Assembly: GCA_910592345.1 (NCBI GenBank)
Contig: CAJVPI010000088.1
Location: 1-57,166, forward strand
Length of the DNA: 57,166 bases
Direction: 5' to 3'
Source: Paraglomus brasilianum
Lineage: Eukaryota
Part shown: positions 1,663 to 47,393 of the stretch, piece after piece
How positions within the stretch are numbered: the stretch's first letter is position 1
Layout: the number at the start of each line of letters is the position of its first letter
Program-made: the position numbers and the translations under genes
The notes under the pieces: model-generated
Told to the model about the DNA's origin: nothing
Database searches by the model: none
What the model saw: only the letters and a program-made list of their open reading frames with translations

Positions 1663-1715
1663 CTGTGCAAAGATTGATAAGTGATACGTTAAATGACAAA
1701 TCGAGCTATGACTGA

Positions 1716-9344: not shown

Positions 9345-12300
9345 ATGTCTTCAGATGAAGAATCAGTAGACACAGAAACATCGTTCGAAGAAGTGTCCAG
9401 TGTTGGTAGTACAGGGTCCAGCACGAGTACACATGAAGTGTTCGCTGATGATATTATTACTACAAAGCCTGGTAAGGGGAAAGCCAGACAGATTGAGTAC
9501 AGCAGTGAGGATGACTCTGATGAAGGTCAACCGACTTTTGCGGACATATCACAAAGAATTGGTGCAGAAAATGTTCAAATAGATTCAGACAGTCAGGAGA
9601 TGACAGATGATGAAGATTCTCAATATGTAAATGCTCGAGAAGATAGTCTTAGTGATGAAGATGATGGTCCTATGCCTAATAAGAATTATCTCTGTGTACG
9701 AGTGTCTGACTCGTCTGGGCTTGACGAACTGACTGACAGTGCAGACGAAGGTGATTCTAATGCAAATAGGGTTCAAGAGGATAGTTCTAACGAAGAAGAT
9801 ATTCCTGCACGGCAAAACGACTATGTCTCACCCGAGTCTGACTCACCGGTACCGCTGGAATCATCAGCGGATGAAGAAGAAGATTCTCCACATGTAAATA
9901 CAAACGGGACTCAGGAGAATAGTTTCAGCGAAGACGAAATTCATACGCAGCAAAACAACTACGTCTTTCCACACGCGTCTGACTTGTCCGAACCGCAGGA
10001 ATCAACGGACGATCGTGATGAACATTTTCAACATGTAAATACCCGTACGACCCATGAGGATAGTTTTAGCGACGAAGATATGCCTATGGACGATGAAGAT
10101 GGTCCACGTGAAAATTTAGGTAAGGCGCTAAAAACCCAGTTTTGTTGCCGATTTTAATATATTACACGCGTCTAACTTGTTCGTATCGTAGGCGAACAAC
10201 ATTCCCCACACGCAAATCTAGGTAATGAATGTAAAAATTAGTAATAAAATAGAATTAAGTCTTTCTGACGTGTCTATTCTGGCAGATGACCGGGAACAAA
10301 TCGATGATGAAGAAGTCGATGACGAAGAAGTCGATGATGAAGAAGTCGAAGAAGATGAAGTCAAAGAAGTCGAAGTTGAAGAAAATGAAGACGAAGAAGA
10401 TGAAGTTGAAGAACATGAAGTTGATGATGAAGACGAAGAAGTCGAAGTTGAAGAAAATGAAGACGAAGAAGATGAAGTTGAAGAAGAAGTCGAAGAACAT
10501 GAAGTTGATGATGAAGACGAAGAAGCTTCTGCACATGCCGGTAAGATATGCACTGAGTAACGTTTCGGAGAATCTCTTCATTTACGGATGTTTGAACTTA
10601 ACAAACAGCAGATAGTTCTCTGCATGCAAAAACAAACGGCGATGGAGATATTAATAAACCCAAAAAGGATCTTCACCTTATGAGCATGCATGATACTCCT
10701 GAAGTCAACGAAACAATTACAAGCAACAAGAGCACCAAAGTTGCTACTGGTAATGCCAATCCTGATCAGCAGGCATGGATTGATGAAAGATTTGCTGAAA
10801 TTCAGTCTTTGATGGCAAAGCTAAAGCCACCGGGAGCAGAAGGAATGCAAACCACAGCAAAACCTCTTTCGCTGCATCCCGCGAAACCACAAGACAAGTC
10901 AGCGACTAGAGGTTATAAAGGCGATCACCGAAAGTCGAAAGAAATGTCACAAAAGAAGGGTGAATCTTTTATTGACAAACTTTACGTGTCTGGTACTGGC
11001 GACAAGGCAGTCGATGCAACTGAGGTCGAGAAGATATCAGGTCCAAGTAAACTCGAACTGCAAGACGAGTTAAACATGCACAAGATGGTATACGAGAGTA
11101 CAAGCCCTAAATCGACATCTACCGAAAGGCTTCAAGAAACTGAGAAGCCCAAAGATAAAAAGCGAAATCAAAAAAGTGAAGGAAAGCATTCTGGACAGAA
11201 ATCAGAATTGCTGCCAGAGAAAGATGTTAATCAAGATCAAGAAGATTTCCATGACGACAATTCTCATATCGGAAAGAAATCGAGCAAATTGAACACGTCC
11301 CCCAGTGGCAGTAAAAACAGAGAATCTCTTCATGAAACCAAACGTTTATCAACTTCTACGAGTAATCCGATCAAAGGAAGTGCTAAACAAAAGGAAGAGC
11401 GTGTTGAAAAACAAGATGCTCATAAAGGCAAGAAAAAGGCTGGCAAACGTGGAAATGGAGTAAAACTTGATAGCGGCATTGTTAGTACGAAGACGGGTGA
11501 AGGTTTGAATACTCAACAAGCATTACCCGTACCCGAATCTGCAGCAGTCATCGATAACAGAATGAACAGAAACAGTCCTTCACCTGGTTGTACTCTTTTC
11601 AGAAAACAAGATGGCGAAACGGCTCACGATTCTGATTTATCGGACAGTTCTTTGCATTCTGGCGCTGGAGAAATAGTTAGATTGGCAGACGAAAGCCAGC
11701 CCAGCAGCGCTGCTCAGCAAACATCGTATATACCCGAAGCTACGGCATTTAGACGGGGACAGGGTTATGAACCAAAACGTGAACCTGATTTATCAGATGC
11801 TTCCTCGCGTTCTGCTACTGTTGGTACAAAATTCGCGTTAGGAACTGAAAGTCCACATGGTCGAACTACTCCGCAAGAGTCGCAGACAAACCCCAAAGTA
11901 AAAGGAAAGAAATCTTCCAACAGGCATCGTAGTGGCGCAAAACCTAATGCTAGTACTGATACATTGACCAGGTCACAGGATTCCGATGAACCTATTAGAG
12001 CTAAGCAAGAATCACAGACATCCGAAAATAGCAATACCAGCCTTTCGCGTAGTTCTTCCAAGAGAAACCAAGGTCACGGGAAAAATCCTAAATCCAAGTC
12101 ACGTGGGAAGGGAATTTCTGACAGAACTGCTCTGCAAACGTCCGAGAATGACAGCAGTCCTTTGCCTAATCCTTCTTCCAAAAAAATCCAAAATCACGGG
12201 GAAAAGCCGCAGGCTGGTGATTCTTTGCATTTTAACACTGATCCTAAAATCAAATCACAGAGGGAAGTCATTTATGACAAAGCTACTCCGCAAGAATCCA

Positions 12301-15300
12301 AGACGTCGAAAAAGAAACGGAAGAAGAAGAAACGTGAAGAACAATCTAATATTGATTCGGATGACGATTCCTTGCAACGTAGCATTGACACAGCAACCAA
12401 GTCGCGGGATGAAAGCAATTTCAACAGGCGTAATCAAGAATCGCTCAAGTCCAAAAATAATAACATCCCCTTGGCTGCTCCTTCAAAAGGAAACCAAATT
12501 AATAAAGCAAAATCTAACTTCGACTCTGCTGACGATTCCTCACATCATAATAGAAAAATCAAGCCGCAGGATGAAAGCGAGCTCAACAGGAGTAAAAAAG
12601 GATCGACCAAGTCCAAGAATAATAACCCCTTGTCTGTTCCTTCGAGAAGAACCCAAATTAATGAAACAAAATCTAACGTCGACTCTGACGATTCCTCGAA
12701 TCATAATATCGACAGGAAACCCAGGTCGCGGGATGAAATTCAGCTCAACAAAAGTAAGCAAGAAACGTACAAGTCCAGGAATAAGAATAATAGCCCTTTA
12801 CCCGTTTCTTCACCCGCTCCTTCACCCGCTCCTTCACCCGCTCCTTCAACGAAATCCCAATATAATAGCGATTCTCTGCGTCATAATGCCCATACAAAAT
12901 CCAGGTCATCAGACATAAGTCAGTCTAACAGAACTGATAAAGCATCACAAGCATCCAGAAGTAACAGAAACAGCACTTTGTCGATGACTTCCAAAAGGGG
13001 CCAGAATAGTGGAACAAATGCTGATCTCGATTCAGATGAAGAGTCTTCGCATGAGCGCGCTGATACCAAGTTCAGAAAGAATGAGTATCTGGATAGCACA
13101 ACTACTCGACAAGCGTCAACCCAAAAGAACACAATTAGCTCTTCACCTACTCCGCATCTCGATTCAGCCAATAAGTTTGGTGCTGCAGATGTCTGGTCTG
13201 AGAATAAAAAGCCGTCCAGCAGAACTACTCAACGAACATCCATGTTGGGTGATGAAAATCAGGATAGCAATCGCAAGTTGGGAGCTGATAATATAAATCG
13301 CTTCTCGCGTACTTTTGATGCGGATACTCGGCCTGCTGATCAAAATCAATATAACGAAACTATTCGAGCATCATCTTTCACAAACAGCGACAACGGATTT
13401 AATGCAAACAGCTCTCTACCACGTGCTGGTATCTCCTTCCAGAGAGACCAAAGCTACGAAACAACCCGTTCGTCAATTTATGGAGATCAAAATCAAAAGA
13501 CCACTCAGCCAACGGGTTCACAAACGAGAGATAGTCTTCACTTAAATGATGATGCTCATTCCAGGAACATGGGTTTCGAGAAAAATTACGGTTCAGATAA
13601 TGTAGGGCTTGGGAAACAGCATGGGCGTCCTACTACTGCTGGTATCATGGCTGATTTAGAAAATTCGCATGGTGGTTTTTCGCAAAATACTGGTGCTACT
13701 TCCGGAAATCAAGGTCGCAACAAATTAAAAGTAGGAAACTCACAAACTCGCTATGAACCAAACGCCAAGGTATTCCATGTGTATATGCCTAAAAACTTGC
13801 CAAAAGGATGTGAGGTTTGGGTTGTTGGCGACATTCCCGAATTGGGCAACTGGAAAAAATTAATGGTCCCTCTTACACAATCAAAGAATTCAAAATATTG
13901 GTATTCGAAGCCGGTGGAAATTCCAACAGTTCGCTTTGGGAATCCCATTCGCTACAAGTATCTCCTTACCCTTAACAGCAGTAAGAGAGCACTTTGGGAT
14001 GTGCGGGGTTGGTTTGCGTCAAATTCTGGTGACGTTTTTTTGTTTGAAGGCTATGACGAGCGTGATAACCGCACATGCAATCCTGCAAAGAACCAATATG
14101 ATGTCTGGAAGCCAAATACCCAGTACAAAGTTTATTCTAAAGATCTTGAATCAGAGTTTGCCTTCCCCTTGCATGTATTTCAAACGGTCACCAACGAAAA
14201 TCTCAAAGAAAAAATAATGGATTACCAAAGACTACTCAAAGGATATGAGGGCTTATGTATCAAAGAAACGCGCTTTATTGTTGATAATTATTCTTTCGAA
14301 ACCTTGCAAGATGTAAACCGTATCTTTTTATGTGTGTTGATTGGCGTCCTTTCAAAGCAGTCCAACCGTAGTCGCGAAATCAAACTTCAGGAAGGGTTTC
14401 CGTCGGCTGATTTCTTAGATGCACTTGGTCGCATAGACGAGAACACTCTACTCTCGGACTCTGAAACGAAGCAATACATATCATATGCAGTTTGTGCATT
14501 AGTCCAACATAATTCGCGATGTTCAAAATCGTTCGATTGGATGAGAGTATTTAATGCAACAGAGTTTATAGATCCGACTTGGACGTTCTTGAATTCGATT
14601 GAAGTACGCGATCTTGACGCTGACGAATCAAAGCAGTTTTGCAAGTCTTTTATGATAAATGTCAAACCATATGTCGATGCGGCGAGTGACCATACTTATG
14701 TGAAACTATATAAAGTAAGTCGTCTCTGGGCGCGTGAGCCAATTTTGTCAATCACTTCTTGGGTCTCGATTTCGTTATTAATTACATTGATATAATTTCA
14801 GTTTTTTATCGAAATATCCAACGGCATTTACATTCTATCCTTTATTTGGACGACCTTCACTAGACCTGATGAGCAATTGACTCAGGCTTGGAAAGTGCGT
14901 CTGGGCCAAATAATCAACACAGATGACGCAATGAAATTACTTAATCATTATTATGAAGTCCCAAATGATCTGGATATCGAGTACAGCTCCGTGTTCGTCA
15001 AGAGAGCTATGATACTGTTCGACGTTTACAAGAACTGGAAGAAAGATGATCTCAATGCATTCGTTACCTTGTTTAAAGAACTACAATGGACTTCGGAAGA
15101 TCAAATGGAAGTGCTACGACGTGCATCAAATTGTCGGCGCATGGAAGTATTAGAAATATTTGTGAATCTAGTGGAAATTGTTCTTGGGAGAACTCGTTCA
15201 GACTCAAATGTGAATGAAAAAATAGACGAGTGTTGCTCACAATGGCTCAGTCGTACAGTAAATATGATAAAGGAATCACATAAACATGTTCGCAATAATA

Positions 15301-18300
15301 CGCAAAATAATGTTTGTATGACCTATCGTCAACTCTCCATCATCTACCCTATCATTGCAGACAGACCAAAAGTTAAAAACGGATTGCTTAAATTTGTCGA
15401 AGAAGAGATAGATCATTATGGGGACGAGCTAATTTATGTTGCAGCTAGAGACATAGGAAACTTGTCAGGAAAAGATATCGAGGCATCTTTTCGAAAGATT
15501 TTGCGTAGAAGACTTGCACAACCTTCTTGTCGAGCGGACGATATACTACTGAAAAAAATTAGGCTGATATGCGGTTGCGATGGCAAACAGATCCGAGTCC
15601 CTAATGGGTAGGTGATATTATAAATGAAGCTTTTTTGAGTTCTTGCTTTCCCAGTTTTAGTGACTGAATCTTTTACTTAAAATAGCTTTTGCGAGGAGAT
15701 TATATTATACATTTTGACTAAATTGCAAGAAAGCGCTCCGCATGGAGACATCGAAATTAGCGATGATTTCCATAAGAGCTTATTGGATTCGTCGAAATTT
15801 TGGATTAGTCTGTTAACTGCCACAGGTGAAGTAGCTCATATTAGGCAGAAGCATATATATAGCATAAGGGTTATAAAAGCTATCAAAGATTTGACGGAAA
15901 AGCTTCGAAGTCAAAGAATCTCACTTGGCATGCTCCAGTATGTTCTCAATCATACGGATAAAGATCTCGCTGAATATTTAGCCATTATTAATGACAGGCA
16001 GTCTCTTCCCATTGAGCCGTCAACTCTTCGAGTATTTCGAGACACACACGCTGTCTACTATAAGACATTACGTGAACTCGGCGATTTTTATGAAAGATTT
16101 TGTCAGAAGGCTGGTGACGTTATAACTTATATTGGTGACATCGCTGAAAGAAGAAATTCTCTTGATAGGACTCGATATAGGGACATTTTGTCAAAGGAAC
16201 ACTGGACAATGCATCAACCGATAATGACAATTGCGGAACGCGCATCTTCATACGCCACATTAGTAACATTTAGTAATGTTTTTGAAATGTCCTTAAACAA
16301 AGTAATTGAAGCAGAGGCGATGAATGTTATAACCATTTCTCAAAAAGTAATGTTTGCAGCATTCGATGAATATGATAAAATACGAGTTTCTCACAAAGAT
16401 TGGACAAATTTAACGTTCAAGAATGCAAAGCTAGTATGGAATAATGTCAAAGACGTGAGGGGAGAACTTGACTTCATGTTAAAAGACATGAAAATAAAGG
16501 CTTCGGAGGATTTGTTCAGGTCTATTTCAATTTTGTCGAAAATATCCAAGTGGCAAGAGCGAGCGGAATATCTGGATGCAGTTGTGGATATTTTCGATGT
16601 CAAGAAAGACAGTGGTACAGATTTTAAGCAATTGAGCCTGCAACTTAAGAACGAGGAAGGAATGTTAAAAGACTTGAAGGCGGTGTTCGATAAGTTTGAC
16701 AACAGAATCAAAATTCTCAACGATGATTGTTGGAAGATGATCAGGGAAATGGCCAATGCACGTGGTTTATTGAAATGGCTTGATGGACTTCGGTCGGACG
16801 CGTTGAATAATGTAATTAACGGAGCAGATGATCAATCTGATGAACATTTGATCCAGGAGGACACAGTATCTGCTCTCATGGAAGTTAGACAATTTGTGAC
16901 CCCGCTTAAGCCACCCGAGCGCTTGAAAATTGATGAATTTTTCAAAAATCTTCGCGAATTGACTAACAATAACAAAATGCTTGCGGAGAGAATCTCGCGT
17001 TGTAGTGCCAACTATTCTGCTCTGAGAAACATGTATGAGGGAATTAATAATAGGGGAGAAGTCACGAGAGTGCGCATTAAAAATGCCGCGACCCGAGGAA
17101 TATACACATTTACCCGTGATCAAAATGAAGACCAGTGCTCCGTCGAGTTGTCGTATGATAAAGATAAAGATACTGATAAAGATAAAGATTCTGATAAAGG
17201 TACCGATAAAGATACCGATAAAGGTACTGCCAGTTACGGCTTAGCGGAATTGCAAGATTTGCGAGGTCGTGCTCTACTTATTGCTAAACAGGAGACGGCA
17301 ACTTTAGCTTCTAACAAAGAAACTGGCCGAGATGATTTGGAACAAGAGGATATGCGTGCAGATGACGTGATGATGAAATTCGTTCGTCAAGTAGACTTTG
17401 TATACCAAATTATTAAAGTTGCATCGAAACTTATAGAATTGGGACATTTTGCTTATCGTAACTTTAATGAGGTGACTCTTAATATTGAAGATATGGAAGA
17501 ATTACTTGATAGATTGCAAAATGATTTGAGGGATTGGTAAGTTTGAGGTTTCATGATTCAGCGTTGTTGAAAGGTCTATCCATACATATTAAATTAAACT
17601 ATTGGTTTCTTGCGTGCAGGGAAGATATTGTAAGTGAAGCACAAGAAGATTACTATTACTTGACATTCTATACCGGAAGACATATTTTAGCGTTTTATGA
17701 TTATTTCAGTCAAGATACAGCCGTCGATGACGATCACAGACAACTTTGCCAGACGTTGTTAAATTTCGTAAATCCCAATGCTCATCTGGTATCAACCGGT
17801 GGGATTGTGAAACTGGATTTGGAGAGAGAAAACTACAATGAAGTGCTATGTAGTATCGGACAAAGACTTTCTGATATATTTAGTCATGTGGCCGTTGTTA
17901 TCAGGGGAATTCCATCCGGCACAATAAAGGAACCAGTCGCCTCTGACATTGCTCGAACTGGAGAGTTGTTTGTAGCAGCATGCAATGACAAGTTTCGAGT
18001 TCCAAATATCATTATGTCGTTGTATGCTAATCGCGGCCTGTACCCTGAATCCTGGCAGGTTTTTATATGCCGAACAACAACTACTGCTGAAGAACTCACG
18101 CTGTTTGTTAAAAGGTGCTTTTTTGCGCCAAGAAATAAATACGGGGAGCACCTGTTCTGTATTGCTAATTTAGAATTCCTTGAATTTGAGCTTCAATACA
18201 ATCTAGTCAACGATATAAGAACGCTGCTTAATCGAGGAGAACCCTTCAATTTAGCTTTGATCTGTTGCAGAGAAAACGGAATTCATCATCATATTCTTGA

Positions 18301-21300
18301 CCAGTTTTCAAAACATGTTGTCAATACTGTGGGACTCGAAATATCTTCCATGAAAAACATGTATGAAGAACTCTGTCCAAATGTCAAATGCGTATCTTCT
18401 GATTTGTCCGGACAAGGCAAAACAGAGTACATCAAGCAAACTTGTATGGAGACCACGTCAATCCCAAGAAGCGTGCTGATAAGTGACGGAATGCGTTATG
18501 ACCGACTTGTCAGTCAGCTGCATGAATGTAAATTAAAGCGTATGGAGAGTTTGCACTTAAATATTGTTTCAGTTGACAATCCTGCTGAAGTCAATACCTT
18601 TATTTTTGAATTTCTGACACTTGGCATTGTGTCTAACAAAGTGAATATCTCTAGTCTTCCGAAACAATCTGTATTCATAGAAATCGCATCTACTATGGAA
18701 CAATATCTGCTCGAGTCATTACCAATCATCAAGTGCTTACCACGAAAACATCTTACGTGGGACATCAACCGCTTTATCATCTCAAGTGAGATTTATAATC
18801 CAATACAGGTGGTGTGCCGCTACTTGGATGCACTCATGAAGGGTACAGTTGATGATAACGATATCTCTTTTGGACATGGAGGTATTCAAGAGCCCTTACC
18901 CGTCATGCGTTGTCGAGAACTCATACAACATTACTTCTTCGCAAACAATCCAGCTACCGTTGCTTCTTACCGCTTTGTGGAGATTTTTATAAACGTTTTG
19001 GCTGATCAATTAGTTCGTCTATCGTTAAGTTCTTTCTTCCGCGTTGAGAACCTCAACTTGATGTCACAAAATAGCAAAGTAAGATCAACGTTATTAGAAA
19101 CATTAATATATGTGTCAAAAGACTTTGCCACACGTTCTGTCGCGAGCAAAGCCGCACAACTAGCGTCAACTGCTAAAGATGCAGATAAAGCACGATTAGC
19201 CACCATAGCGCAATGGGACGACTCGAATCATTTACTAGTGTTCTTCTTGTCACAAACACCAGACTCTATTTGCGCCCTCTATCGTGATAGGAAAAAAGTA
19301 CCGGAGAACGTTAAACGTCTTTTGTGGAGCCAAAAAGCACAACGTGAAAGTTTGAAATCGTTTACCTTGGAAGACTATCATAAAATGCTACCTCGAACTC
19401 TGCAAGAACGTCTGGAATGTATAGCTCGTACATCGATGGAAAGTAAAAAATTTGGTGATTACGCTCTATCAGCTGACAATCTTATTAAAATGGCACTTAT
19501 TTTGCTACGAGCACGCGCAAATATTCCGGTCGTTGTTTGTGGAGAGGCTGGATGTGGCAAGGTAATATTATTTTGTTTTGCCAATTCTTGTTTATTCGAA
19601 TACTGTATTGACGTTTTTGACTTAATAGACAAGTCTAATAGCCTATTTGGCAAGAGTCATTGGTGTCCAATTCCATAATCTCTCTTTGCATGCTGGCATT
19701 GTTGAGAGCCAGATTCTTTTATTCATGAACAAGGGAAATGCCGATGCCGAGAAAACTGAAGATGAAGTATGGCTATTTTTCGACGAAATTAACACTTGCA
19801 ACCACATTGGTCTCCTGGCAGATCTAATAGCCCACAGAATGTTCTTAGGAAAACCAATCCTTCCGAATATTCGCCTGTTTGCTGCTTGTAATCCTTACCG
19901 ATTGTGTGTGAACAATGATAACGTAGCAGGATTAAAGAAAACAAGGGTATACAAAAGTAATCTTGTCTATCAAGTTCATCCTCTTCCTGATCAAATTCTT
20001 GATTATGTCTGGGACTTCGGTGTGCTCAAACCCGAAGATGAAAAGGTAAATTCGTAGTTCGATTGCACCCTCATAATGATAAACCGGTTCTAAATATGTT
20101 CTATCAATCAGTTATATATAAAAATCATGGTCTCAAGCGAAATAAAAGAGAATACAAAGAATTTTGATATGATCAGCGAATTGCTTTTTTCCTCCCAAGA
20201 CTATATACGCCAAATCGAAGGACCGCAAAGCGTAAGTCTGCGCGATGTCAAAAGAGCAATCAAACTAATTAAATGGTTTCAACAAAGCCTCCGAGACAGA
20301 AGGGAACTGAAAGAAAGGAGGAAAAATACCCGTTATAAATACACAACGGGCAGGCATTTGCCTGAACTTCCCGTTGTTCTATCGTTGGGACTTTGTTATC
20401 AAGCTCGACTTTACAAACAGAACGAGAGATTAGAGTACCGTAGGCGGATGGCAAAGGTTTTCGGGAAATATAGCATTTACTTGACCTCGGAAAACTTTAA
20501 AGATATGCTTTACGATGAACAGAAAGATTGGATAGATAGAATGATATGTCCACCAGCAACTGCCCAAAATGAAGCCCTATTGGAAAATGTACTTGTAATG
20601 ATAGTCTGTATAATGACACGAATTCCAGTCTTTATTATTGGAGCTCCTGGAAGGTAATTAAGAACACTGCAATCATTTTAGTAGGAACGGATATTAACTG
20701 CTGTTTCTTTGTTGCCAGTTCTAAATCGCTATCGATGCGACTTGTCAGTTCTAATCTTCGGGGCGTTGATTCGGAAAATGCGTACTTTAAAACGCTGCCA
20801 CAAGTGATTATCCAAGTGATCTAGTTTATGTTTCTGCGGTCTTAGTTTTAACTTGCTCACGTTCAATATTTCCAGGTTATTGTAATTCCGCATCAAGGTT
20901 CATCAACTTCAACGTCTGACGGAATCGAGAAAGTTTTCCAGAAGGCAACAAAGTTTCAAGAAAGTAGATCCAGAAATTTCAACGTGCAAGCTGTGGTTCT
21001 TCTTGATGAAGTTGGTCTAGCAGAAACGAGTCCATTCAATCCCTTAAAAGTATTGCATGGACTTCTCGAACCTAGTTATCCTGAAAATGAACCAAAAGTG
21101 GCAGTAATCGGAATAAGCAATTGGAGATTGGACAATAGTAAATCAAGCAGGGCATTACTTGTCCAGAGGCCTCAATTGGACGAAAATGACCTTGTGAACA
21201 CGGCTGAGGCTCTTCTTTTGGAAAACAGGAGGACCTGGCTTTTTGATGTTAGTTCGAAGAAGCAGAAGATACAAAGCATTGCCAGATCCTACACACACTA

Positions 21301-28134: not shown

Positions 28135-29357
28135 TACTAGGTCAAGTTCTCAGTTTGTTAGTGTTGACCGACATTAGTAAAAAATCCAATTACTTTATCA
28201 TCGAACTTTCCGACAGAGTAATTTGCTATCATTTTTTATTCGAGAAATAGTTTATTCTTATTAATAATAAATACAATCATACTTAGCCTGCACGATCATG
28301 ATTTGAATCCCAATGTAATAAGCTTACCAATTATGGAATTACAAATTCAAACTATTTTGTCACGTACCGAATTTGAGCCTAATGTCTGTACAAGGACATT
28401 TAGGGTTCGTGGCTGCTTGGTAAAAAAAACCTCACTGACTTTCAAGAGAAACTTCCCCTAATTTGCCTCATTCTCACTTTATCCTTTTTTTGCTAATAGA
28501 ACGAATTTGTTCTGGTAAAATACAGCAAATTTCGTTATAAATTTCAGATCACGAGCGTTTCAGCTTCAGCCCCCACAATTATTACTAATTATGATACTAA
28601 TACATGGTCTAATTTTCCTAATTTCCATGCCAATTGTTTTACCTAAATCTATTCAGTAGACTTCTCGTCTTTTAATTATTTGTCAGCGCAAGCATCTAAT
28701 GATAAAATTCAAAAGTCAAGCCGTTTCTCATTTATTATCCAGTCTCTCACTTGCTTTGGTTCTATGTCGATTCTGCTTGCTGTTTCTCGGATAGAATGAC
28801 AATAAGTTTAGTTGCAGGCTTGTTAGCGCGAACCATAGTATCGAGGAAGAGAACGTGAATATCCGTGCATTATATAGTGTGTTACATAAACACTATTACT
28901 ATGCCACCAACCGAGATGATAGTTCCAAATTTTGATTTCTGACGAGTCGCTTTATATTAATGTACACGTAATGCTGTAGTTTACCAGAAACGCCAGAACC
29001 ATAGTTATTATGTGACTTTTGTTACGCTGGTCCTCAGTGTTGTTGTCAATAAAGTACTCCTCAAAACTCGCGCGGAAAGCTGATAAACCCTAATACTAAC
29101 CCAATTTTTCAACCCCCGAATGTAATCAAACATTGTTTAATAATTACAAATTTCAGAATTTTGGGACCCACGACATTATATATCTAGGCATTCTGAGTGT
29201 TCACAACGTGTCATACTCTACTCCTTTGTAAATGTAATTTTTACTTTTTCGTTACATTGACACGACGAAAGGAAGCATATTTATTGTGCAAATAATCACG
29301 AAAATCATGTATAATAATAAATGTAAATAAAACTACGAAAAGAAAAGAAAAAATTTT

Positions 29358-38300: not shown

Positions 38301-41300
38301 CTGACATTGTCTGGCGCTTTAGCTCTATCACGGTAAAGCGCGCAAATAGAATCTGGTGTTTGTGATAAGAAAAACACTAACAAATGGTTTGAGTCGTCCC
38401 ATTTGACTATCGTGGCTAATCGAGCATTGTCGGCGTCTGTGGCAGTCGATGCTAGCTGTGCGGCTTTGCTTTCAACCGAGCGTGTCGCAAAATCTTTTGA
38501 CACACGTAGTAGAGTCTCCAGTAGCGTTGATCGTACATCGGAATTTCGCATCATCAACTTGAGGTTTTCAACACGGAAGAAAGAGCTTGAGGATAAGCGA
38601 ACTAATTGATCAGCAAGAACTCTAACGAAAATCTCCACAAAACGATAAGAAGCAATTGTCTCTTGATTTTTTTCAAAGAAGTACTGTTGTATGATTTCCC
38701 GACAATGTGCTTGTGGTAATGGCTTGGCTACGGTTTCATCGAAAAAGATATCATCATCGTCAATTGCCTTTTTCGTGTATACATCCAAATAGCGACAAAC
38801 AATTTGAATTGGACTATGAATTTCGCTTGAGACAATAAAATTATTAATGTTCCATGTAAGATGCTTTCGGGGTAAACATTTAACGATTGGCAATGACTCG
38901 AGCAAATATTGATCCACGGTCGACGCAATCTCAATCAGGATAGCTTGCTTTGGAAGAGTAGCAATATGTACTTTGTTAGATACCATCCCAAGTGTAAGAA
39001 ATTCAAAAATAAACATGTTGACTTCTGCGGCATTGTCGACAGAAACAATGTTCAAGTGCAAACTCTCTAAACGTTTGGGTTTGCATTCATGTAACTGACG
39101 CACAAGTCGATCGTAACGCATGCCATCACTTATCAGCACGCTTTTTGGAATTGACTTTGCCTTCATACAAGTTTGTTTGACGTACTCCGTTTTACCCTGA
39201 CCAGATAGATCTGAAGATACGCATGCCACATTCGGACAGAGCTCTTTGTACATATTTTTCATGGAAGCTGCCTCGAGGCCAACGGTATTGTATACATGGT
39301 TTGAAAATTGGTCAAGAATGTGGTGATGGATACCATGCTCTCTGCAACATATTAATGCTAGTTTATAATTCTTCTCTTGTTCAAGCATCGTTCTTATGTC
39401 CTTAACGAGATTGTATTGTAGCTCAAATTCAAGAAATTCCAAGTTAGCAATGCAGTACAAACAATCTTCGTAACCGTTTGCCGCCGCAAAAAAACATCTT
39501 TTGATAAATAACGTAAGTTCTTCAGCCGTTGTCGTTGTTCTGCATATAAATACCTGCCACGGTTCAGGATATGAGCCATGGTTAGCGTACAACGACATAA
39601 TAATGTTTGGAACCCGAAACTTGTCATTACATGCTGCTACAAACAGCTCTCCAGTTCGTACAATGTCGGAAACGACTGGTTCCACTATATCAGGCTTAAT
39701 CTTTCTGTCAGAAACATCCTCATTATAAAAGATTTCGGAAAGTCTTTCTCCAATACTACATAGTACTTCCTTGTAGTTTTCATTGTGTGAATCCACCTTC
39801 AAAATCCCACCAGGTAATGGCAGTTGAGCATCAGGATTCACAAAATGTAGCAGCGTCTCGCAAATTTGTCTGAGATCGTTTGCTGGCGCATCTTGAGTGA
39901 AATAATCATAGAACTTCAAGATATGTCTTCCGGGATAAAAAGTCAGGTAATAGTACTCCTCTTGCACATCTCTTACAATCTCCTCCCTGTAGAAATAATT
40001 AAGTTATACATACGTAAAAACTATAATAACGGGCATTGCATCACGGGAATTTATACTTGCCACTTCTCCAAATCTTCTTTTAATTGATCAAGTAGTCTTT
40101 CCATCTCTGTAGTGTTACGCGTCAAAGCCCGAAACTTTCGATAAAAGAAATGTCCCAATTCCATTAACTTTGTTGCAAAGTTAATAATCTGATGCACCGA
40201 ATCTACTTGTTTAACAAACATCATCATCACAACGTCTGCTCGATCCTCTTCGTACTTGGGACGATCTTGAATAGTTTCCTTCTTCATAACGAAAGTTGCC
40301 ATTTCCTGCTTGGCGATGAGTAAAGCCCGACCTCGCAAATCTTGTAACTCAGTCAAGTCGTATTTGTTATTACCCTTCTCTGTTTCGTACGACATCTCAA
40401 CGGAGCACCGATCTTCATACTCATCGCGTTTAAATGTGTAAACTCCCCTTGTTGCAGCATTTTTAATACGCTCTTTCGTAACTTCGCCTCTATTAGTAAT
40501 ATTTTCATACATATTCATTAGTGCAGAACGATGACCATTACAGAGAGAAATTCTCTCCGCGAGTAGTTTATTCTTATCAGCCAATTCGCGAAGCTTCTTT
40601 AAAAATCCTGGAACTTGCAATTGCACTTCAACTGATTTGAGTGGAGCCAAAAACTGTTTGACTTCCATAAGAGAAGAAACTGTGTCTTCCTGGATTAAGC
40701 GTTCGTCAGAGTGGTCATCAACTCCGTTAATTACGTTCTTCAAATCATCCGATCCAATTTTGTCAAGCCAAGCCAATAAATCGCGAGCGGCGGCTATCTC
40801 TTTGATTATTTTCCAGCAATCATGATTTAGATCTTTGATAGCCTTTTCTAGTTTTACGATCAGTTTCTTTAAATCTTTTAACGGCATTGTTTCCTTTTCT
40901 AGGCCGGCAAGCATCGTTGAAAATGTTTCTTCTTCGCCATCCACGACTGCGAAAATCTTCAATACATCTATCAGGTATCGTAATCGCTCTTTCCACTCGG
41001 GTATTTCAGATAGTACTTTAATCGATCTCATCAAATCTTGTGAAGGCTTCCATTTCATGCCTTTTGACATTAATTCAAGTTCTTGTCTGACATCATTCGC
41101 GTTTGCCCATAATGGACTTGCTTGAGCGCACGTTAGCTTTTCCCAATCTTTATAAGCAGCTCTTTTTTCATCATACTTGTTGAATGCTGCCGTGGTAACT
41201 TTCTGAGCGACCACTTCTACTGTCAAAGGTTCTGATTCTTCCTCTTCTTTCAAACATTCCTCAAAGACATTGGCAAAGGTTCTCGAATTACGATACGGAT

Positions 41301-41922
41301 ATATGCGTTCCGCAACGTCACTTATTGATTGATGAATTGCCCAATACTCCTCTAATAAAATATCTTTGTACTGAACCTTATCAAGCGAATCCCTTCTTTT
41401 AGCAATATCATTGAGGTAAGCTTCAACATTGGTCACTTTGGCATCTTTCTGACAAAATTGTTCGTAAAATGTACTGAGTTGACTTAAAGTCTTTTGGTAG
41501 CCAGAGAATACTTCCCGAAATTCCCGAATAGTACGCGGTTCAATGGAAAAGGACTGTTTACTGTCATCGAAATTGTCGAGAATGCCAAAATATTCGCAGA
41601 GGTCTTGGTCCGGATAATGAAGAAGTTTTTGAAGCATGCTTATTGTAACGCGTTGACTTTCAAGCTTCTCGGCCAAGCCTTCAATAGCTCTTCGAACTCT
41701 CTCACAGTAGAGATGTTGTTGTTTAATACGGTCTACACAACCCTTGGCAGTCAACACGCTCACCCAAAATTTCCAAGAACCTAACAAGGTCTGGTGAAAT
41801 TTGTCGCTAATTTCGTCGGCTTCTTGATGAGGAGCGCTTTCTTGCAACTTGGTCAAAATATGGAATAGAATATCTTCACAGAAACTATAATGTAAAAAGG
41901 ATCGAACCACTGAAGTTTAACA

Positions 41923-41957
<35 letters not shown>

Positions 41958-44900
41958 GAAAGTTTTCATTGTCACTCACCCATTAGGAACTCGAATTTGT
42001 TTGCCTTCACAATCGCAAATCAGTTTAATTTTCTTCAGTAAACGGTCATCGGCCTTCCAAGAAGATTGCCCAAGCTTTCTTTGTACAATTGTGCCAAAAG
42101 ATTTCAAGATCTCCTTCACTGATAATTCTCCTATATCTTTGGCTGCTGCATAAATTTGAGCTTCCTCGAATGGATTGATCTCTTCTTCAGCAATATTTAA
42201 TAGTTCATTTTTAATCGTCCGTCGATCCTCGAGGATTGGATAAATGGTAAAAAGTCGTTGATAGACCGTATATACATAATTATATCCATGAGCGCGAGAG
42301 CGTTTACGCGATTCCTTTATTTGATTCACTATGCGCCTGAACCATTGTGCGCAATAATCACCGAGTTTCGTATTCATTTTTGAATCGAAATGGGTTTTGT
42401 CCAGAACTATCTGAAGCAGTTCCACAAATACATCCAATAATTCCATGTTTTGTGAGGTTGATACCGAACTCAATACCTTCATTCTGTCTTCTGACGTCCA
42501 TGGCAGTCTATTGTCTTCGAACAACGCAACAAATCCCTTAATATTGTCTCCATCCCATTTCGATCTTGATCCATTGAGTAAATTTATAACCCTCTTAATG
42601 AACAATGACGTAAATTCGATATCTAGATCGGTTGGTATTTCGTCCAAATGCACAAGTAATCTTGTTGGATTATCCTTGCTAATTATCTCGTCCAGTCGTC
42701 TCATCATCCAATTCTGTCTTAATTCAGCCTTCATTTCTGGTCTAATCATCTCCCTCCACAGAAAAACTAGAACTTGAATATTGGCGGATATTTCAATAAA
42801 AAACTAACAGTATATATTACATTAGTATCACACTCGAGGCTTTATGCAGCGGGAAATTAGATTATACTTACTCTACATAATCGAATGTATTGGAAATCCT
42901 CCTTTTCTATATTAGATTTCTGCTCGAGAAGAAATTTGCAGAAACGATCCGATTCATCAGGGTTCAATTCGCGTCTTCTAACTGACTCCAAGAACGAATA
43001 TTTCGGATCGATAAAAGCCGCTACTTCGAACATTTTCATCCACTCGAAAGCACCTGATGTTTGCCAATTATGCTGGACTAACATGCGAACAGCGTAGGGT
43101 AGCAAGTCTATAACTTCGCTAATCAGTGTGTCACCGCTGCCTATACAACTAAGAGAATTCAACAGGCCGGCCGATGGAAATTTATCCTCCAGCCTAACCT
43201 CGTGATTATGATAGGACATTTTCGCAATAATGCCGAGCAGTATACACAAGAAAATACGTTGTGCATCCTGGTTGGCCACGTAAAAGCTGTTGCTGATAAA
43301 TTCTATGTTCACAGTTTTCAAACATAATTCTCTGTGTTGCTTGAATACCCGCTGATAGTCTATAAGCTTGGTCTTGAAATTAGCTTCGGTGATCGTTTCG
43401 AATATTTGCGTAGGGAAGTAAAAAGGCTTAAGATCACGTTCATAAAGGGGGTATTTAGGATTCCGCTTCCAGACGTCGTATTGGTTCTCTTCAGGAAAAA
43501 GTTCGCGATTATCTCCGTCGTCATTGCCTTCATAGTAAAAAGCATTATTATTCCAGAATCTAAATCCCCCGCTTTTGGAAACTATGACGTATTTATACCA
43601 AATGACACGTTGAAAGCGAGGCGTCGGAATTCTCACTGGGTCCGAATACCAATAATTCGAATCTTTATATCTCCTAAGGCAGATTTTTAATTCCTCCCAT
43701 TTGCCCAATTCTTCGATATTACCGACAACACAGACTTCAGCGTCCTTCACCTTAGGCATATGAACGTGAAACTTTGTGACCACTTCGTCAGAATTCTGAT
43801 ATTGAGGCGGGATCGGTCGAAGCAGTTTCTTGTTCTCTTTCTTTCCGTAAACATCACTCGTCGTTCCTGTTTTGGTGGGCTTCCTATTGTCAGATGCTAC
43901 CGTTGCGTAAGATCGAGTAGGTTGAGAACCTCCCATTGAATTAAAATCGGAGTCTGTTCCGCGATCTTTGCCTTTATTATCATCCTTAATATTACGTTCC
44001 TTACGCACGTCGCTGTGAGCCTCTGACTCATCACCTTCGTCATTTTCTATCATGCCAACAATATTAGGCACATTTTTCGAAGTACCCGTGGAAACTTTCC
44101 GAATAACCCTTGGCTTATTCGTCCTTTTTTCGTTATTCACCTTATCGCCATAAGAATCTTTTTGATCATCTTTTGAGGTACCCATGGAAAAACTCCGTGT
44201 ATGGCTCGCCTTATTTCTCCGTTTTTCGTCACTCTCACGTAACGCTACATTGCTTTCTGTGTGTAGATCATCGCCATAAGAATCTCTTTGACTATCACGC
44301 CTTGCACCTTTCTGTTCAGACGCCTTCCACGCTCCCCATGCAATTTCTTTCGCCTGTTCATTCCCTCCCCGTACAATTTCCTCTATCACCCGTTCATTCG
44401 CTCCTCGTGTAATTTGCTCCATCTCCCGTTTAGCCGTCTCCTGGTTAGTATTCTCTACAGATCTTTGTTCACTTCCGTCCGTTTCATTCTCGTCAGAAGT
44501 TTCCTTCGATGCTTGTTCATTTTGTCCCATATCCTCTTCGTCAGAATTCGTCACCACTCCGCGTTCAATTGGTTTACTTCCCTTTTGGTCAAATTCCTCC
44601 GCTGCTTCTCGTTCAATTAACCCCTTTTCCTCGTCTTCTTCAGTTAGCTGGGATTTATCGAATATCATTTTATGCGAATTTAGTTCATGTTGTGTATTCA
44701 AACCACTAGGGACAGACAAGTCATTATTTGCGTCGGCTGCCTTGCTGTGCAACGTAGATTCATTAGAATCGGACGGCTTATACTTAAAGATGAAGGGTGT
44801 ATCCGTTTCTTGTGAACCAGAAGAGGACTGGTCTGCTTCTTTTCCAGTCAAATCCACTGAAGAACGTTCTGACGATTTTGCCGTTTCTTGCTGATGGTCA

Positions 44901-45586
44901 CTGTCCCCAGCTTCACCATGATATATTGCTAAACGTGGCGAAGGAGGATCTTTTGGCGATTGTGGCGTGTCATCTTTATGAAATTCTGCTGAACTTGGTG
45001 AAGGAAGGTCTTTTGGAGATTGTTGTGTGTCATCTTCATGAAATTCTGCTGAACGTGCTGAAGGAAGGTCTTCTGGAGATTGTTGTGTGTCATCTTCGGC
45101 GTCTGCCAGGGCTTGTGAGAGAAAATCACTCATAGATTTTCTAATGTCGGCCAATCTTTGGTCACGTTCCATGTCTGACGCCTTATTGCCACCAATTCTA
45201 ATATTATTGTCGACTGCGGCCAATCCACGAGATTCAGAATCGTCAGATAGGTGCACAAAAGAGTCGTCCTTTTTGTCTGTAGACGAAGAGTCACCTTCGC
45301 TGCTGGAACTGTCAGAGGCACTGCTCACGTTTGCATATTCTACAATTACTGCGTCTTCTGATTTGGTTTGTTCAAGTTTTTGTTTTTCTTTGTCTTGTGA
45401 CTCGTCTGAATGTGTTAATTGACTATCCGATTTAGTGGCTTCAATTATATCCGAGTTATTATCCTGTGTGTCGTTATGAGGCGGCGCAACGAGGACATAG
45501 GACTCGTTCCGTGGTGTGGTATCATTAGAACTGGGCGCTTCCGGAGAAGACGCTTCGATATCTAGTGAGTCGTCACTCGAAGACAT
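29358..45586 (-). CDS. RNF213: Giant RNF213/mysterin-like AAA+ ATPase / RZ-finger E3 ligase, paralogue B (~5062 aa). Exons 5'->3': 45586-42872, 42803-41980, 41884-40061, 39986-38051, 37981-37565, 37496-36940, 36871-36787, 36717-36267, 36190-36137, 36059-35731, 35661-35607, 35526-34362, 34280-31863, 31791-29547, 29471-29358
   Basis: Exon sum 15189 nt is open. Same motifs as gene A (SDLSGQGKT, GEAGCGKTS, FFDEINT, GAPGSSKS, LLDEVGLAE, GLRDYY, SLYDLWNQNY). All 14 introns match gene A in position and phase; one uses a GC donor (40060). Confidence 0.9.
31686..31790 (-). other. RZ-type zinc finger (variant) of gene B
   Basis: YQCKCGYKYFVADCGNVVMALQCPECASVLGGHQY after splicing. Confidence 0.8.
41924..41954 (+). 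repeat. Poly(A) tract, 31 nt (poly-U in intron 2 of the gene B transcript)
   Basis: Seen directly within intron 41885-41979. Confidence 0.95.
43469..43780 (-). other. CBM20-like carbohydrate-binding domain of gene B
   Basis: VTKFHVHMP..AEVCVVGNIEELGKW...YWYSDPVRIP....IWYKYV...DNR...NQYDVW. Confidence 0.8.
44918..45097 (-). repeat. 3 x 60-bp coding tandem repeat (EDDTQQSPEDLPSARSAEFH-like) in the gene B N-arm
   Basis: Exact 60-bp periodicity seen in DNA and translation. Confidence 0.92.
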
Positions 45587-46076
45587 TTCTTTTTTTTTAG
45601 TCTGTTTTTTGACAATAAAGTATCAAACCCCAAGAGCCTATTCTCAAAAGAACACGGCCAGAGAATAAGAAAATCGTCAAAATAACAAAGAGTGGAGCTT
45701 TATACGCCTAAACCGGACTTGTAACTCCAATATTCCGACAAACGTAATCGATGATTTTGGGGAGGGAGCGTGTGATCCTTACCCGAGCCGAGTGAACCCC
45801 AAATCTGCAATAGTTGGCCAATTGGAATGAGGGATTCTTATAGGTACCCTTATCGGAGTTACACGGAACTATTCCCGATATAGTGAACAGTGAATATTTA
45901 CTTTATGAAGGCAGAATGATAGTAGGGCGACGTTTGTTCAACAAACCGTCACATGTGACCGGGCAGACGGTGTGAACATTTTAACAGATGTGGATGAGGC
46001 TTGGCCAAATGGACAGGTTTGGTCCAATTATAAGATAACGTCCCTACCGCTCCCCCACCCCTGCCAATATCTCGAA
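45587..46076. promoter_or_regulatory. Putative bidirectional promoter shared by RNF213-like gene B and the RING-Ubl-TerD gene
   Basis: 490 bp between two divergent ATGs (45586 on -, 46077 on +). No specific sites demonstrated. Confidence 0.5.
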
Positions 46077-47393
46077 ATGAAATGCTCGCAGTGTAAGATT
46101 GATAAGTTGTCAAATGAATTTCCGTCGTCTCCTGTGACTGAGCGTTGTATCCATGTATCTTCGCATTGTTTGCGGGTAATCTACAAACATTATATCTAGT
46201 CAAGAATGTGTTTTGTTAATCAACATTGTAACTTGCATGCTTTGTTTGTGTTCAGTGTCTGGTCCAATCACTAAACAAACAGAACGAAGACGAGTATCAT
46301 TGTCCGGGATGTAAAGCGGCACTTAACAATGAAGAAGTCGTAAGATGGAGGCAACGTTTGGATAAGGCTTCGTTTAAGTTGAATGTCGATAAACTTGGTC
46401 GTCGCCACCTTGCAAACATAGAAAATGTCGACAATAATGAGGAGATTGTTCAACAAGGGAATATATATGTGGTCTTACTAAACGGAGAGAAGATTGTAGT
46501 CGATTACGAGAAAGTGCGCACTGTAGTGGCATTACGGCAAGAAATTCGTACCAAGAAGAAAATAGAAGTCACCAAGCAAAAATTGGTGTACAATGGTGTT
46601 GAGCTCAAGGTTGGTAAGGAATGGTACTGTCAGAGTATTTATTGTTCGAGTATTTTCTAGTCTTATCATCATTCTTCTACGGTTACAGGATCATGCGGAC
46701 GACAACGGAGATAAAAACCTTGTCGAATATGGCATTAGAGCCAATAGTCACATACAATTGATGGTTATTCTTTACGAAATTACGGAAAAAGAAACTATTA
46801 AGGACCTTGTATTTGATTTAGACTGGGGATTCCCCAACGACCAAACAGTCGACTATCTCGATGGAACTTGTTTCTTGTATACGGGTAACAAATACTGGCG
46901 CAAATACGATTATCAATCTCAGTATTACCCATCTACGCAAAATACGAGACATTCCGGTGACGTACTTAACCGTACGACCAGAAGAGGTGACTTTGTATAT
47001 AAACTCTCTCTTTTATGTTTTGTGGATATACGTGACTAGCAACTTATATCGGACATCTTAATACACATAGGCCACCATAAGATAACATCTAAACTGGACG
47101 AACTACCCGAAAACGTGACGCATTTGTATTTTATCCTTAGCGCATGGAACTCACCATCCATTGGATGCTACAAGACTCCAACGTTCAGTCTATTAGATAG
47201 TGAACATCCCGATAAGAACTTGTGCAGATATGAACTCGAAAATGTCGCACATTCAAAGGCTGTCATCATGTGTAGTGTTGCGCGTGCCGGGACTAAATGG
47301 AATGTCTACATAGTTGGCACGGAGTCCGCAGGTAATGCGAAAGATTACAGGCCAATTGAGCAGAAAATTCAGACCATGGATGGGTTGTTTTAG
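46077..47393 (+). CDS. RING-HC + ubiquitin-like + TerD-domain protein (~357 aa); exons 46077-46175, 46256-46609, 46689-46986, 47071-47393
   Basis: RING: CSQC-x17-C-I-H-x4-CLR|C-x14-CPGC. Ubl: GNIYVVLLNGEKI...QKLVYNGVELKD...NLVEYGIRANSHIQLMV. TerD: LDWG...DYLDGTCFLY...RHSGDV...HKITSKLDELPENV..LYF...LCRYEL...AVIMCSVAR...W. Exon sum 1074 nt is open. Confidence 0.85.

What the first reader, a model, noticed from the sequence alone, without database searches (positions are those of the whole stretch)
9345..47393. Candidate fungal ubiquitin-immunity locus: two RING-less RNF213-like giants plus a divergent RING-Ubl-TerD partner
Seen: two intact 5-6 kaa proteins (CBM20 + multi-AAA+ + RZ finger) tail-to-tail, with a RING-Ubl-TerD gene head-to-head to one of them. 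Established: animal RNF213 is a cell-autonomous immune E3 that ubiquitylates bacterial LPS through its RZ finger and triggers xenophagy; TerD domains belong to bacterial stress/anti-phage Ter systems; Mucoromycota host intracellular bacteria. Inference: this is a clustered, possibly co-regulated system for surveying or controlling endobacteria or other invaders. I am not aware of such a cluster being functionally described in fungi.
Basis: partly seen in the sequence, partly recalled or inferred. Interest (0 to 1): 0.9.

Follow-up and report, generated by a model that had tools for sequence, protein, structure and literature searches.

The report
Fungal RNF213-like ligases with conserved partner
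A mycorrhizal fungus carries two intact, spliced giant relatives of the human immune ubiquitin ligase RNF213, both without its RING finger, beside a small RING/ubiquitin-like/TerD gene that has the same neighbour in three other fungal genera, so the small protein is likely an undescribed helper of a ligase that probably marks intracellular invaders.

Summary
Observation confirmed. Gene A (+, 5,844 aa) and gene B (-, 5,062 aa) are intact, tail-to-tail paralogues with CBM20, AAA2-4 Walker motifs and an RZ finger with its catalytic Cys. A profile of their E3 module aligns to mouse RNF213 (E 1e-123) with the RING unmatched. Gene C (357 aa; RING, ubiquitin-like, TerD) starts 490 bp from B, head-to-head. 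RNA contigs from relatives skip 13 of 17, 9 of 14 and 3 of 3 modelled introns. The decisive test was linkage. Consecutive gene numbers on contigs of equal length put a C relative beside an RNF213-like gene in Ambispora, at two Gigaspora loci and in Jimgerdemannia. No such pair was seen in Rhizophagus (0 of 74 accessions). C's RING looks most like RBR RING1 domains (weak Z) and has no conserved linchpin. Best reading: C is a dedicated cofactor of a cysteine-relay ligase in cell-autonomous defence (0.45). Binding, co-regulation and any bacterial target are untested, and the endobacteria idea has no direct support. Both families are multi-copy across arbuscular mycorrhizal fungi. No paper on the pair was found; this scan noted it before on other DNA.

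The parts
9345..28134 (+). Gene A: RING-less RNF213-like protein, 5,844 aa, 18 exons (9345-10119, 10192-10221, 10286-10540, 10612-14714, 14802-15607, 15686-17536, 17620-19561, 19629-20045, 20112-20653, 20719-20803, 20876-21332, 21403-21456, 21566-21900, 21965-22019, 22089-23250, 23316-25691, 25766-27953, 28033-28134)
   Evidence: 13 of 17 introns skipped in listed RNA joints; the first three introns and 17537-17619 rest on splice signals and frame (the last also on its match to an intron of B)
9345..13757 (+). Gene A: about 1,400-aa polar, low-complexity N-terminal arm with internal repeats (predicted disordered)
   Evidence: 76% polar/charged/G/P, 15% hydrophobic; internal repeats near 9759-10081 and 12335-12787
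13800..13997 (+). Gene A CBM20 domain
   Evidence: Pfam CBM_20 E 1.5e-6
18419..21010 (+). Gene A AAA core: AAA2 Walker A K2874, AAA3 K3254/E3307, AAA4 K3576/E3647
   Evidence: motif scan; AAA numbering inferred from order and from PMC7311170 passages
25767..25892 (+). Gene A RZ finger: C-x-C...C5096 (catalytic position)...C-x2-C; Ser5117 at the His4537 position
   Evidence: Pfam 2.3e-12; alignment to RNF213
29358..45586 (-). Gene B: RING-less RNF213-like protein, 5,062 aa, 15 exons (45586-42872, 42803-41980, 41884-40061, 39986-38051, 37981-37565, 37496-36940, 36871-36787, 36717-36267, 36190-36137, 36059-35731, 35661-35607, 35526-34362, 34280-31863, 31791-29547, 29471-29358); GC-AG intron 39987-40060
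   Evidence: 9 of 14 introns skipped in listed RNA joints; all 14 introns match an intron of A in position and phase
43547..43777 (-). Gene B CBM20 domain, after a 598-aa polar N-terminal arm
   Evidence: Pfam CBM_20 E 1.5e-8
36583..39193 (-). Gene B AAA core: K2053, K2433/E2484, K2760/E2831
   Evidence: PDB RNF213 hit of the exon, E 2e-7
31863..34280 (-). Gene B E3-shell/core exon; holds the position of the mammalian RING, which is absent
   Evidence: profile A3 against mouse RNF213: RING falls in inserts or on non-Cys columns; no RING pattern in 0 of 123 long relatives and models
31680..31790 (-). Gene B RZ finger: C4280-x-C...C4291...C-x2-C; Tyr4312 at the His4537 position
   Evidence: Pfam 9e-10
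45587..46076 (.). 490-bp stretch between the divergent start codons of B and C; likely a shared promoter region (inferred, no start sites mapped)
   Evidence: sequence; gene models
46077..47393 (+). Gene C: RING-Ubl-TerD protein, 357 aa, 4 exons (46077-46175, 46256-46609, 46689-46986, 47071-47393)
   Evidence: 3 of 3 introns skipped in RNA contigs; model pLDDT 88
46083..46312 (+). Gene C C3HC4 RING (C3, C6, C24, H26, C31, C34, C49, C52), RBR-RING1-like, no conserved linchpin
46457..46772 (+). Gene C integral ubiquitin-like domain, no C-terminal di-Gly
   Evidence: (Z 13.1, rmsd 1.3, 72 aligned)
46794..47378 (+). Gene C TerD domain with conserved D194, D206, D209, D225, H239, D242
   Evidence: 2qz7_B Z 19.1, rmsd 2.3, 158 aligned

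Best explanation
Genes A and B are intact RING-less RNF213-like proteins, and gene C encodes a RING/ubiquitin-like/TerD protein whose gene recurs beside such giants in other fungi, so C is likely a dedicated cofactor of a ubiquitin ligase that probably defends the cell against intracellular invaders. Proposed working, step by step. (1) Shown: A and B keep CBM20, the AAA2-4 Walker motifs and the RZ catalytic Cys. (2) Inferred from mammalian RNF213: ATP switches the giant on, an E2 passes ubiquitin to the RZ Cys, and the giant coats a foreign surface. (3) Shown: C has an RBR-RING1-like finger without a conserved linchpin, an uncleavable Ubl and a TerD fold with a conserved Asp/His cluster. (4) Inferred: TerD binds a metal-bridged ligand or small-molecule signal, the Ubl docks C on the giant or on the growing ubiquitin coat, and the RING brings extra E2~ubiquitin for transfer to the RZ Cys. 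(5) Inferred: the divergent promoter keeps the two co-expressed. A is an old tandem duplicate of B.
For: Homology: last big exon hits all 9 distinct RNF213 PDB sequences at E about 2e-15; E3-module profile E 1e-123 over mouse 2697-4619. Linkage outside the window: Ambispora gerdemannii 10720/10721 (C-like) and 10722 (RNF213-like), contig 67,600; Gigaspora margarita KAF0525875/876 and KAF0525877/878, contig 494,730, the same locus again as 25736/25735 in a second assembly; G. margarita 16628/16629, contig 17,505; Jimgerdemannia BC936DRAFT_148834/148836, contig 26,796. That is 7 of 50 named fungal C-like rows, 4 loci, seen with only 120 of 647 long RNF213-like hits listed. Chance of 4 or more: 3e-6 to 0.02 over the assumptions tried. 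The linked giants lie in five separate clades and the linked C proteins in four, which fits a pair that was duplicated together. The 8 best structural matches of C's RING are RBR RING1 domains, Z 4.2-4.9. All three genes have spliced contigs in the same four runs taken together. Mammalian RNF213 works through the RZ Cys and does not need its RING (PMC11549300, passages). RNF213 is reported expanded in symbiotic bivalves (PMC9993606, passage), and molluscs are the other main holders of C.
Against: No linkage in Rhizophagus: 0 of 74 C-like accessions lie within 5 numbers of a listed RNF213-like accession (nearest 67), and in the chromosome-level numbering the nearest of 13 RNF213-like genes is 1,831 genes from the two C-like genes whose numbers were seen. 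28 of 50 named fungal rows on contigs of 15 kb or more had no partner among the listed hits, and 15 of 50 are on shorter or unlisted contigs. Linked loci share ancestry, so they are not independent draws. Mammalian RNF213 docks its E2 on its own CTD (10.1101/2021.05.10.443411, passages), so a RING in trans is not needed. One linked giant (P0307) has lost the RZ catalytic Cys. A and B lack the predicted general-base His. The RBR matches are within 1 Z of ordinary RINGs. No named C relative from Mucorales or Mortierellaceae (0 of 51 named fungal rows). No substrate, localisation or induction data exist here.
Confidence: 0.45

Rival explanations
1. Shared regulon without partnership: C is a stand-alone small E3 or sensor of the same stress or defence response, and the head-to-head layout is kept only because both genes use one promoter.
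For: 490-bp divergent arrangement; C has its own RING and a likely ligand-binding domain; RNF213 needs no outside RING; both genes occur unlinked in Rhizophagus.
Against: A RING with no conserved linchpin (position 53: K 15, E 10, N 8, P 7 of 61) and RBR-RING1-like matches would be a poor stand-alone ligase and suits a partner with a catalytic Cys.
Confidence: 0.22
2. Inherited synteny without function: an ancestral neighbourhood was copied by segmental duplication and is being lost at random.
For: Linkage absent in Rhizophagus and unseen for most rows; the Paraglomus and Ambispora loci may be one orthologous locus.
Against: The pair spans Endogonales and three orders of Glomeromycota, and recurs at two Gigaspora loci whose giants are in different clades. 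The window's other neighbours (REX1-B, GCD14 methyltransferase, kinase) were not tested for synteny, so this rival is weakened but not excluded.
Confidence: 0.12
3. The module is real but serves housekeeping, such as ubiquitylating the fungus's own glycogen particles, lipid droplets or damaged organelles, and not invaders.
For: CBM20 is a starch/glycogen-binding family; RNF213 activity on damaged mitochondria and glycogen ubiquitination appear in search listings only; lipid-droplet localisation of RNF213 is recalled.
Against: Many divergent paralogues per genome (at least 13 gene numbers in one Rhizophagus assembly), variable RZ fingers including catalytically dead clades and patchy taxonomic spread look more like conflict genes than housekeeping genes.
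Confidence: 0.11
4. C is a brake, decoy or substrate: it holds the giant inactive, or soaks up microbial effectors that attack RING domains, so that symbionts are tolerated.
For: A bacterial effector binds the RING of human RNF213, and RING-less RNF213 escapes it (PMC12440826, passages); a linked giant is catalytically dead; these fungi keep endobacteria (PMC5909441, passage).
Against: C's RING ligands and TerD residues are strongly conserved from fungi to molluscs, unlike a fast-changing decoy.
Confidence: 0.1

Closest known systems
Mammalian RNF213 / mysterin (PDB 6tax, 7oik, 8s24, 9g08, 9jw1)
   Same: Order CBM20 - AAA ring - E3 module - RZ finger - CTD; Walker A in AAA2, Walker A and B in AAA3 and AAA4; catalytic RZ Cys; about 5,000 aa.
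   Different: No RING; RZ zinc site C-x-C instead of C-x3-H; His4537 position Ser or Tyr; much longer polar N-terminal arm in A; many paralogues per genome; a recurring RING-Ubl-TerD neighbour.
Bacterial TerD (PDB 2kxt, 2qz7, 3ibz, 2qng)
   Same: Same fold (Z 19.1 and 15.9; Foldseek 2e-9); conserved D-x-L-D and H-S-G-D motifs.
   Different: 10-22% identity; fused to RING and Ubl; G-H-H where bacterial TerD has an acidic calcium-binding loop (that loop is recalled, not aligned here); no ter operon.
RBR ligase RING1 domains (ARIH2, HOIL-1L, RNF144A, HOIP, HHARI, CUL9)
   Same: The eight top structural matches of C's RING; C3HC4 with no conserved linchpin; HOIL-1L also has a Ubl.
   Different: C has no IBR or RING2, so no catalytic Cys module of its own; Z values are low (4.2-4.9) and tied with ordinary RINGs; by sequence the best hits are BRCA1, BMI1, RING1B and RNF4.
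LUBAC accessory subunits acting downstream of RNF213
   Same: Small Ubl- and zinc-finger-bearing proteins that work in the same antibacterial ubiquitin cascade (PMC12440826, passages).
   Different: No TerD, no genomic linkage to RNF213, no homology shown beyond generic Ubl and RING folds.

Membership tests
RNF213 / mysterin | Full-length homology of AAA core and E3 module | tested here: met
   (profile E 1e-123); the single E3-shell exon alone found no RNF213 hit
RNF213 / mysterin | N-terminal CBM20 | tested here: met
RNF213 / mysterin | Walker A in AAA2; Walker A and B in AAA3 and AAA4 | tested here: met
   reference pattern from PMC7311170 passages
RNF213 / mysterin | RZ finger with catalytic Cys (human C4516) | tested here: met
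   A C5096, B C4291
RNF213 / mysterin | RZ zinc ligand H4509 and general base H4537 | tested here: not met
   C-x-C replaces C-x3-H in 73 of 74 pattern hits; His position is Ser (A) and Tyr (B), His in 48 of 74
RNF213 / mysterin | RING inserted in the E3 shell | tested here: not met
   no RING pattern in any of 123 proteins of 3,500 aa or more. So these are RNF213-like relatives, not vertebrate-type RNF213
RNF213 / mysterin | ATP-dependent transthiolation and LPS ubiquitylation | not testable with these tools
   needs biochemistry
TerD domain family | TerD fold and Pfam PF02342 | tested here: met
   51 of 51 aligned members match
TerD domain family | Two calcium sites as in Klebsiella TerD | tested here: inconclusive
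   Asp/His cluster conserved; no residue-level alignment to 2kxt was obtained
Bacterial Ter system | Operon with TerB, TerC, TerY and related genes | tested here: not met
   no other Ter family among the 34 window ORFs scanned
RBR E3 ligases | RING1-type finger | tested here: inconclusive
   top 8 matches are RBR RING1 but tied with ordinary RINGs
RBR E3 ligases | IBR and RING2 with catalytic Cys | tested here: not met
   the 357 aa are filled by RING, Ubl and TerD
Conjugatable ubiquitin-like modifiers | di-Gly at the end of the Ubl | tested here: not met
   Ubl ends V-x-L-Y in most of 61 members

The most novel reading that the evidence does not exclude
The ancestral eukaryotic RNF213 system is a two-protein, split ligase: a RING-less ATP-gated giant with the catalytic RZ Cys, and a separate RING1-like/Ubl/TerD subunit that senses the invader and delivers E2~ubiquitin. 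Vertebrates lost the subunit and carry a RING inside the giant. Mycorrhizal fungi amplified the pair into a diversified intracellular immune repertoire, with His-, Tyr- and dead-RZ variants, that polices their endobacteria and viruses.
Probability: 0.2. Interest if true: 0.92.

Novelty: new variant of a known kind. Interest (0 to 1): 0.74.

Why it matters
The function of the RNF213 RING and its cellular partners are open questions (PMC12440826, passages). Natural RING-less RNF213 relatives with a recurring small neighbour give a concrete candidate cofactor that can be tested in vitro. They would also extend RNF213-type cell-autonomous immunity to arbuscular mycorrhizal fungi, which live with endobacteria and have little described intracellular immunity, and give a first role to a eukaryotic TerD fusion shared by fungi and molluscs.

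Tried and rejected
Own genome not held, so paralogues in this assembly were not counted. Metagenome scan with the C alignment gave 55 loci; 0 of 55 carried an RNF213-like hit, but the median length is 2,280 bp and only 7 of 55 reach 5 kb, so this is uninformative. Complex prediction of B's E3-shell exon (residues 165-805 of it) with C gave no answer (score 0.00; alignments were not used; only one of several candidate regions was tried); it is no evidence either way. The single E3-shell exon found no RNF213 hit; a profile was needed. The idea that the vertebrate RING was captured from C is not supported: the RNF213 RING ranks 17th by sequence (E 0.009) and 20th by structure (Z 3.5, though with the highest identity listed, 33%). 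RNA contig depth cannot rank genes, so co-expression was not tested. A link between partnership and loss of the RZ His (1 of 6 linked giants has His, against 48 of 71 others; Fisher p 0.02) was not accepted: numbers are small, the P0081, P0295 and P0307 states were read by eye, relatives are not independent, and unlinked Tyr types exist in Rhizophagus. Anantharaman 2012 (Ter systems) and Otten 2021 could not be read; an earlier mention of this TerD fusion there cannot be excluded. No supplements were read; gene-family tables of fungal genome papers may list these genes.
Full report
1. What is in the window. ORFs and GC show two long intron-broken genes facing each other and a small gene beyond the second. 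Splice sites were fixed from RNA joints and GT/GC-AG signals. Gene A (+ 9345-28134) has 18 exons and 5,844 aa; gene B (- 45586-29358) 15 exons and 5,062 aa; gene C (+ 46077-47393) 4 exons and 357 aa. None has an internal stop. The spliced C is identical to stored protein P0001, which NCBI names Paraglomus brasilianum 7298_t, on a contig of 57,166 bases. Contigs from four RNA or probable-RNA runs of related strains or soil communities skip 13 of 17, 9 of 14 and 3 of 3 modelled introns among the joints listed; 18 and 26 further joints were not shown. Most contigs differ from the window by a few per cent, so they show splicing in relatives, not in this isolate.

2. A and B. They are 56.8% identical over A1211-5818, about 75% in the AAA core and under 20% in the first 1,200 residues; all 14 introns of B match an intron of A in position and phase. 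In the AAA-core tree A is sister to B plus a P. occultum protein, so the duplication is older than that species split. Both have CBM20 and RZ by Pfam and Walker motifs in the AAA2/3/4 pattern described for RNF213 (PMC7311170, passages). The last large exon hits RNF213 at 2e-15, the AAA exon at 2e-7. A 40-sequence profile of the E3 region aligns to mouse RNF213 2697-4619 at 1e-123, with the mouse RING in insert columns or on non-Cys columns. A RING pattern is found in 0 of 123 proteins of 3,500 aa or more. The RZ finger keeps the catalytic Cys but has C-x-C in place of C4505-x3-H4509 (73 of 74 pattern hits among 215 proteins). The general-base position (human H4537; PMC11549300, passages) is His in 48, Tyr in 20, Ser in 3 and other in 3 of 74; it is Ser in A and Tyr in B. 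Some clades have lost the catalytic Cys. The family is large: 647 hits of 2,568-8,173 aa; the named ones among the best 120 are all Glomeromycota. More distant RING-less relatives are from Endogone, Jimgerdemannia, Branchiostoma, Cymbomonas and Epipyxis.

3. C. The model (pLDDT 88) has three domains. TerD: 2qz7_B Z 19.1, rmsd 2.3, 158 aligned; 2kxt Z 15.9. Ubl: Z 13.1, no di-Gly. RING: eight ligands kept in 59-60 of 61 relatives. A RING-only profile hits BRCA1, BMI1, RING1B and RNF4. A RING-only model has RBR RING1 domains in its first eight places (Z 4.2-4.9) and ordinary RINGs from the ninth (4.2 and lower), so the RBR likeness is a lead. The linchpin position is not conserved. Of 72 relatives, 49 are named Glomeromycota, 2 Jimgerdemannia, 11 molluscs or Lingula and 10 unnamed; Atlas clusters are all eukaryotic, mostly molluscan. 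Fungal and animal members form separate clades.

4. Is the neighbourhood conserved? No eukaryotic genome could be read, so adjacency was inferred from consecutive gene or accession numbers together with equal contig length; orientation is known only for the window. Positive: Ambispora gerdemannii 10720, 10721 (C-like) and 10722 (giant); Gigaspora margarita KAF0525875, 876 (C-like) and 877, 878 (giants), seen again as 25736 and 25735 in a second assembly; G. margarita 16628 and 16629; Jimgerdemannia flammicorona 148834 and 148836. Of the 50 named fungal C-like rows other than P0001, 7 are linked (4 loci), 15 lie on contigs under 15 kb or without a listed length, and 28 showed no partner among the giants listed, which were only 120 of 647 plus 20 clusters looked up. 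A binomial estimate for 4 or more is 3e-6 to 0.02, depending on assumed gene counts, and ignores shared ancestry. Linked giants fall in five clades and linked C proteins in four. Negative: in Rhizophagus 0 of 74 C-like accessions are within 5 numbers of a listed giant; ten giant clusters were looked up, not all. The metagenome scan was uninformative. Earlier notes of this scan report the same pair in a soil fungus (e1-7508367) and in Naegleria and other branches (e1-673201). These are leads.

5. How it likely works. Shown: intact catalytic motifs in the giants; the three folds of C; recurrent adjacency; a 490-bp divergent spacer. Taken from mammalian work: ATP gates transfer of ubiquitin from an E2 to the RZ Cys, the E2 docks on the CTD, and the RING is dispensable (10.1101/2021.05.10.443411 and PMC11549300, passages). 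Inferred: C acts with the giant, TerD reading a metal-bridged ligand or signal (TerD as a possible nucleotide-derivative binder: PMC7159879, passage), the Ubl docking it, and the RING1-like finger supplying E2~ubiquitin. A defence role is inferred from the mammalian function, the expansion and divergence of paralogues and the patchy distribution. The target is unknown. Mollicutes-related endobacteria lack LPS (recalled), so LPS could be the substrate only for Gram-negative guests. I give this reading 0.45; shared regulon 0.22, inert synteny 0.12, housekeeping 0.11, brake or decoy 0.10. The one complex prediction gave no answer.

6. Literature. Searches: RNF213 + TerD, 0 papers; RNF213-like + fungal + immunity, 0; RNF213 + fungi + RZ finger, 1 review (listing only); RNF213 + arbuscular mycorrhizal, 1 review (listing only); broader searches listed nothing on the pair among the rows shown. 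The library lacks most subscription papers. Passages were read in PMC11549300, PMC12440826, PMC7311170, PMC7159879, PMC9993606, PMC5909441, 10.1101/2021.05.10.443411 and 10.1101/2021.12.02.471044; no whole texts or supplements. Databases already label some fungal giants 'e3 ubiquitin-protein ligase' or 'RZ-type domain' and some C relatives 'tellurium resistance protein terz-like', so the genes are annotated, but the pairing was not found in print.

7. Verdict. Real, well supported as anatomy and as a recurring gene pair; unproven as an immune system against endobacteria. New variant of a known kind; interest 0.74.

Noticed in passing
window 25869 (A) and 31688 (B); proteins P0112, P0295, P0307, P0081: RZ fingers of the family split into His, Tyr and Cys-less types; 5 of 6 giants linked to a C-like gene lack the general-base His, against 23 of 71 others. 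A hint only.
   Followed up: partly
P0307, P0314, P0332, P0303 (Gigaspora, Dentiscutata): A clade of full-size giants has lost the RZ catalytic Cys; one member is next to a C-like gene.
   Followed up: partly
P0121 (Branchiostoma), P0118, P0111 and relatives: Amphioxus and unnamed records hold RING-less RNF213-like giants with degenerate RZ fingers.
   Followed up: partly
Rhizophagus accessions (for example PKC02217/02219, PKK71241/71243, RGB33131/33133, OCT59_008414/008416; Ambispora leptoticha 12478/12480): C-like genes often come in pairs with one unknown gene between them; that gene could be a further partner.
   Followed up: no
P0232 (Diversispora), P0175 (Dentiscutata), P0294 (Scutellospora): Some RNF213-like annotations carry protein-kinase or topoisomerase Pfam families; real fusions or merged gene models.
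   Followed up: no
L045:2918-5848: A 977-aa ORF joins a chitobiase C-terminal/Fn3-associated domain to a TerD domain of the same type, beside a TMEM43 gene.
   Followed up: partly
window 2-995: 3' end of a hybrid histidine kinase gene with response-regulator domains.
   Followed up: no
window 1376-1705 (-): Isolated ORF resembling a UBA-containing piece of a ubiquitin hydrolase (read by eye; this strand was not scanned); possibly a gene fragment.
   Followed up: no
window 48498-49240, 50561-52088, 54822-57166: REX1-B domain gene, GCD14-type tRNA methyltransferase and a kinase-like gene of the kind expanded in these fungi, cut by the window end.
   Followed up: no
window 5000-8000: AT-rich stretch (GC 0.26-0.32) without recognisable genes upstream of gene A.
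   Followed up: no
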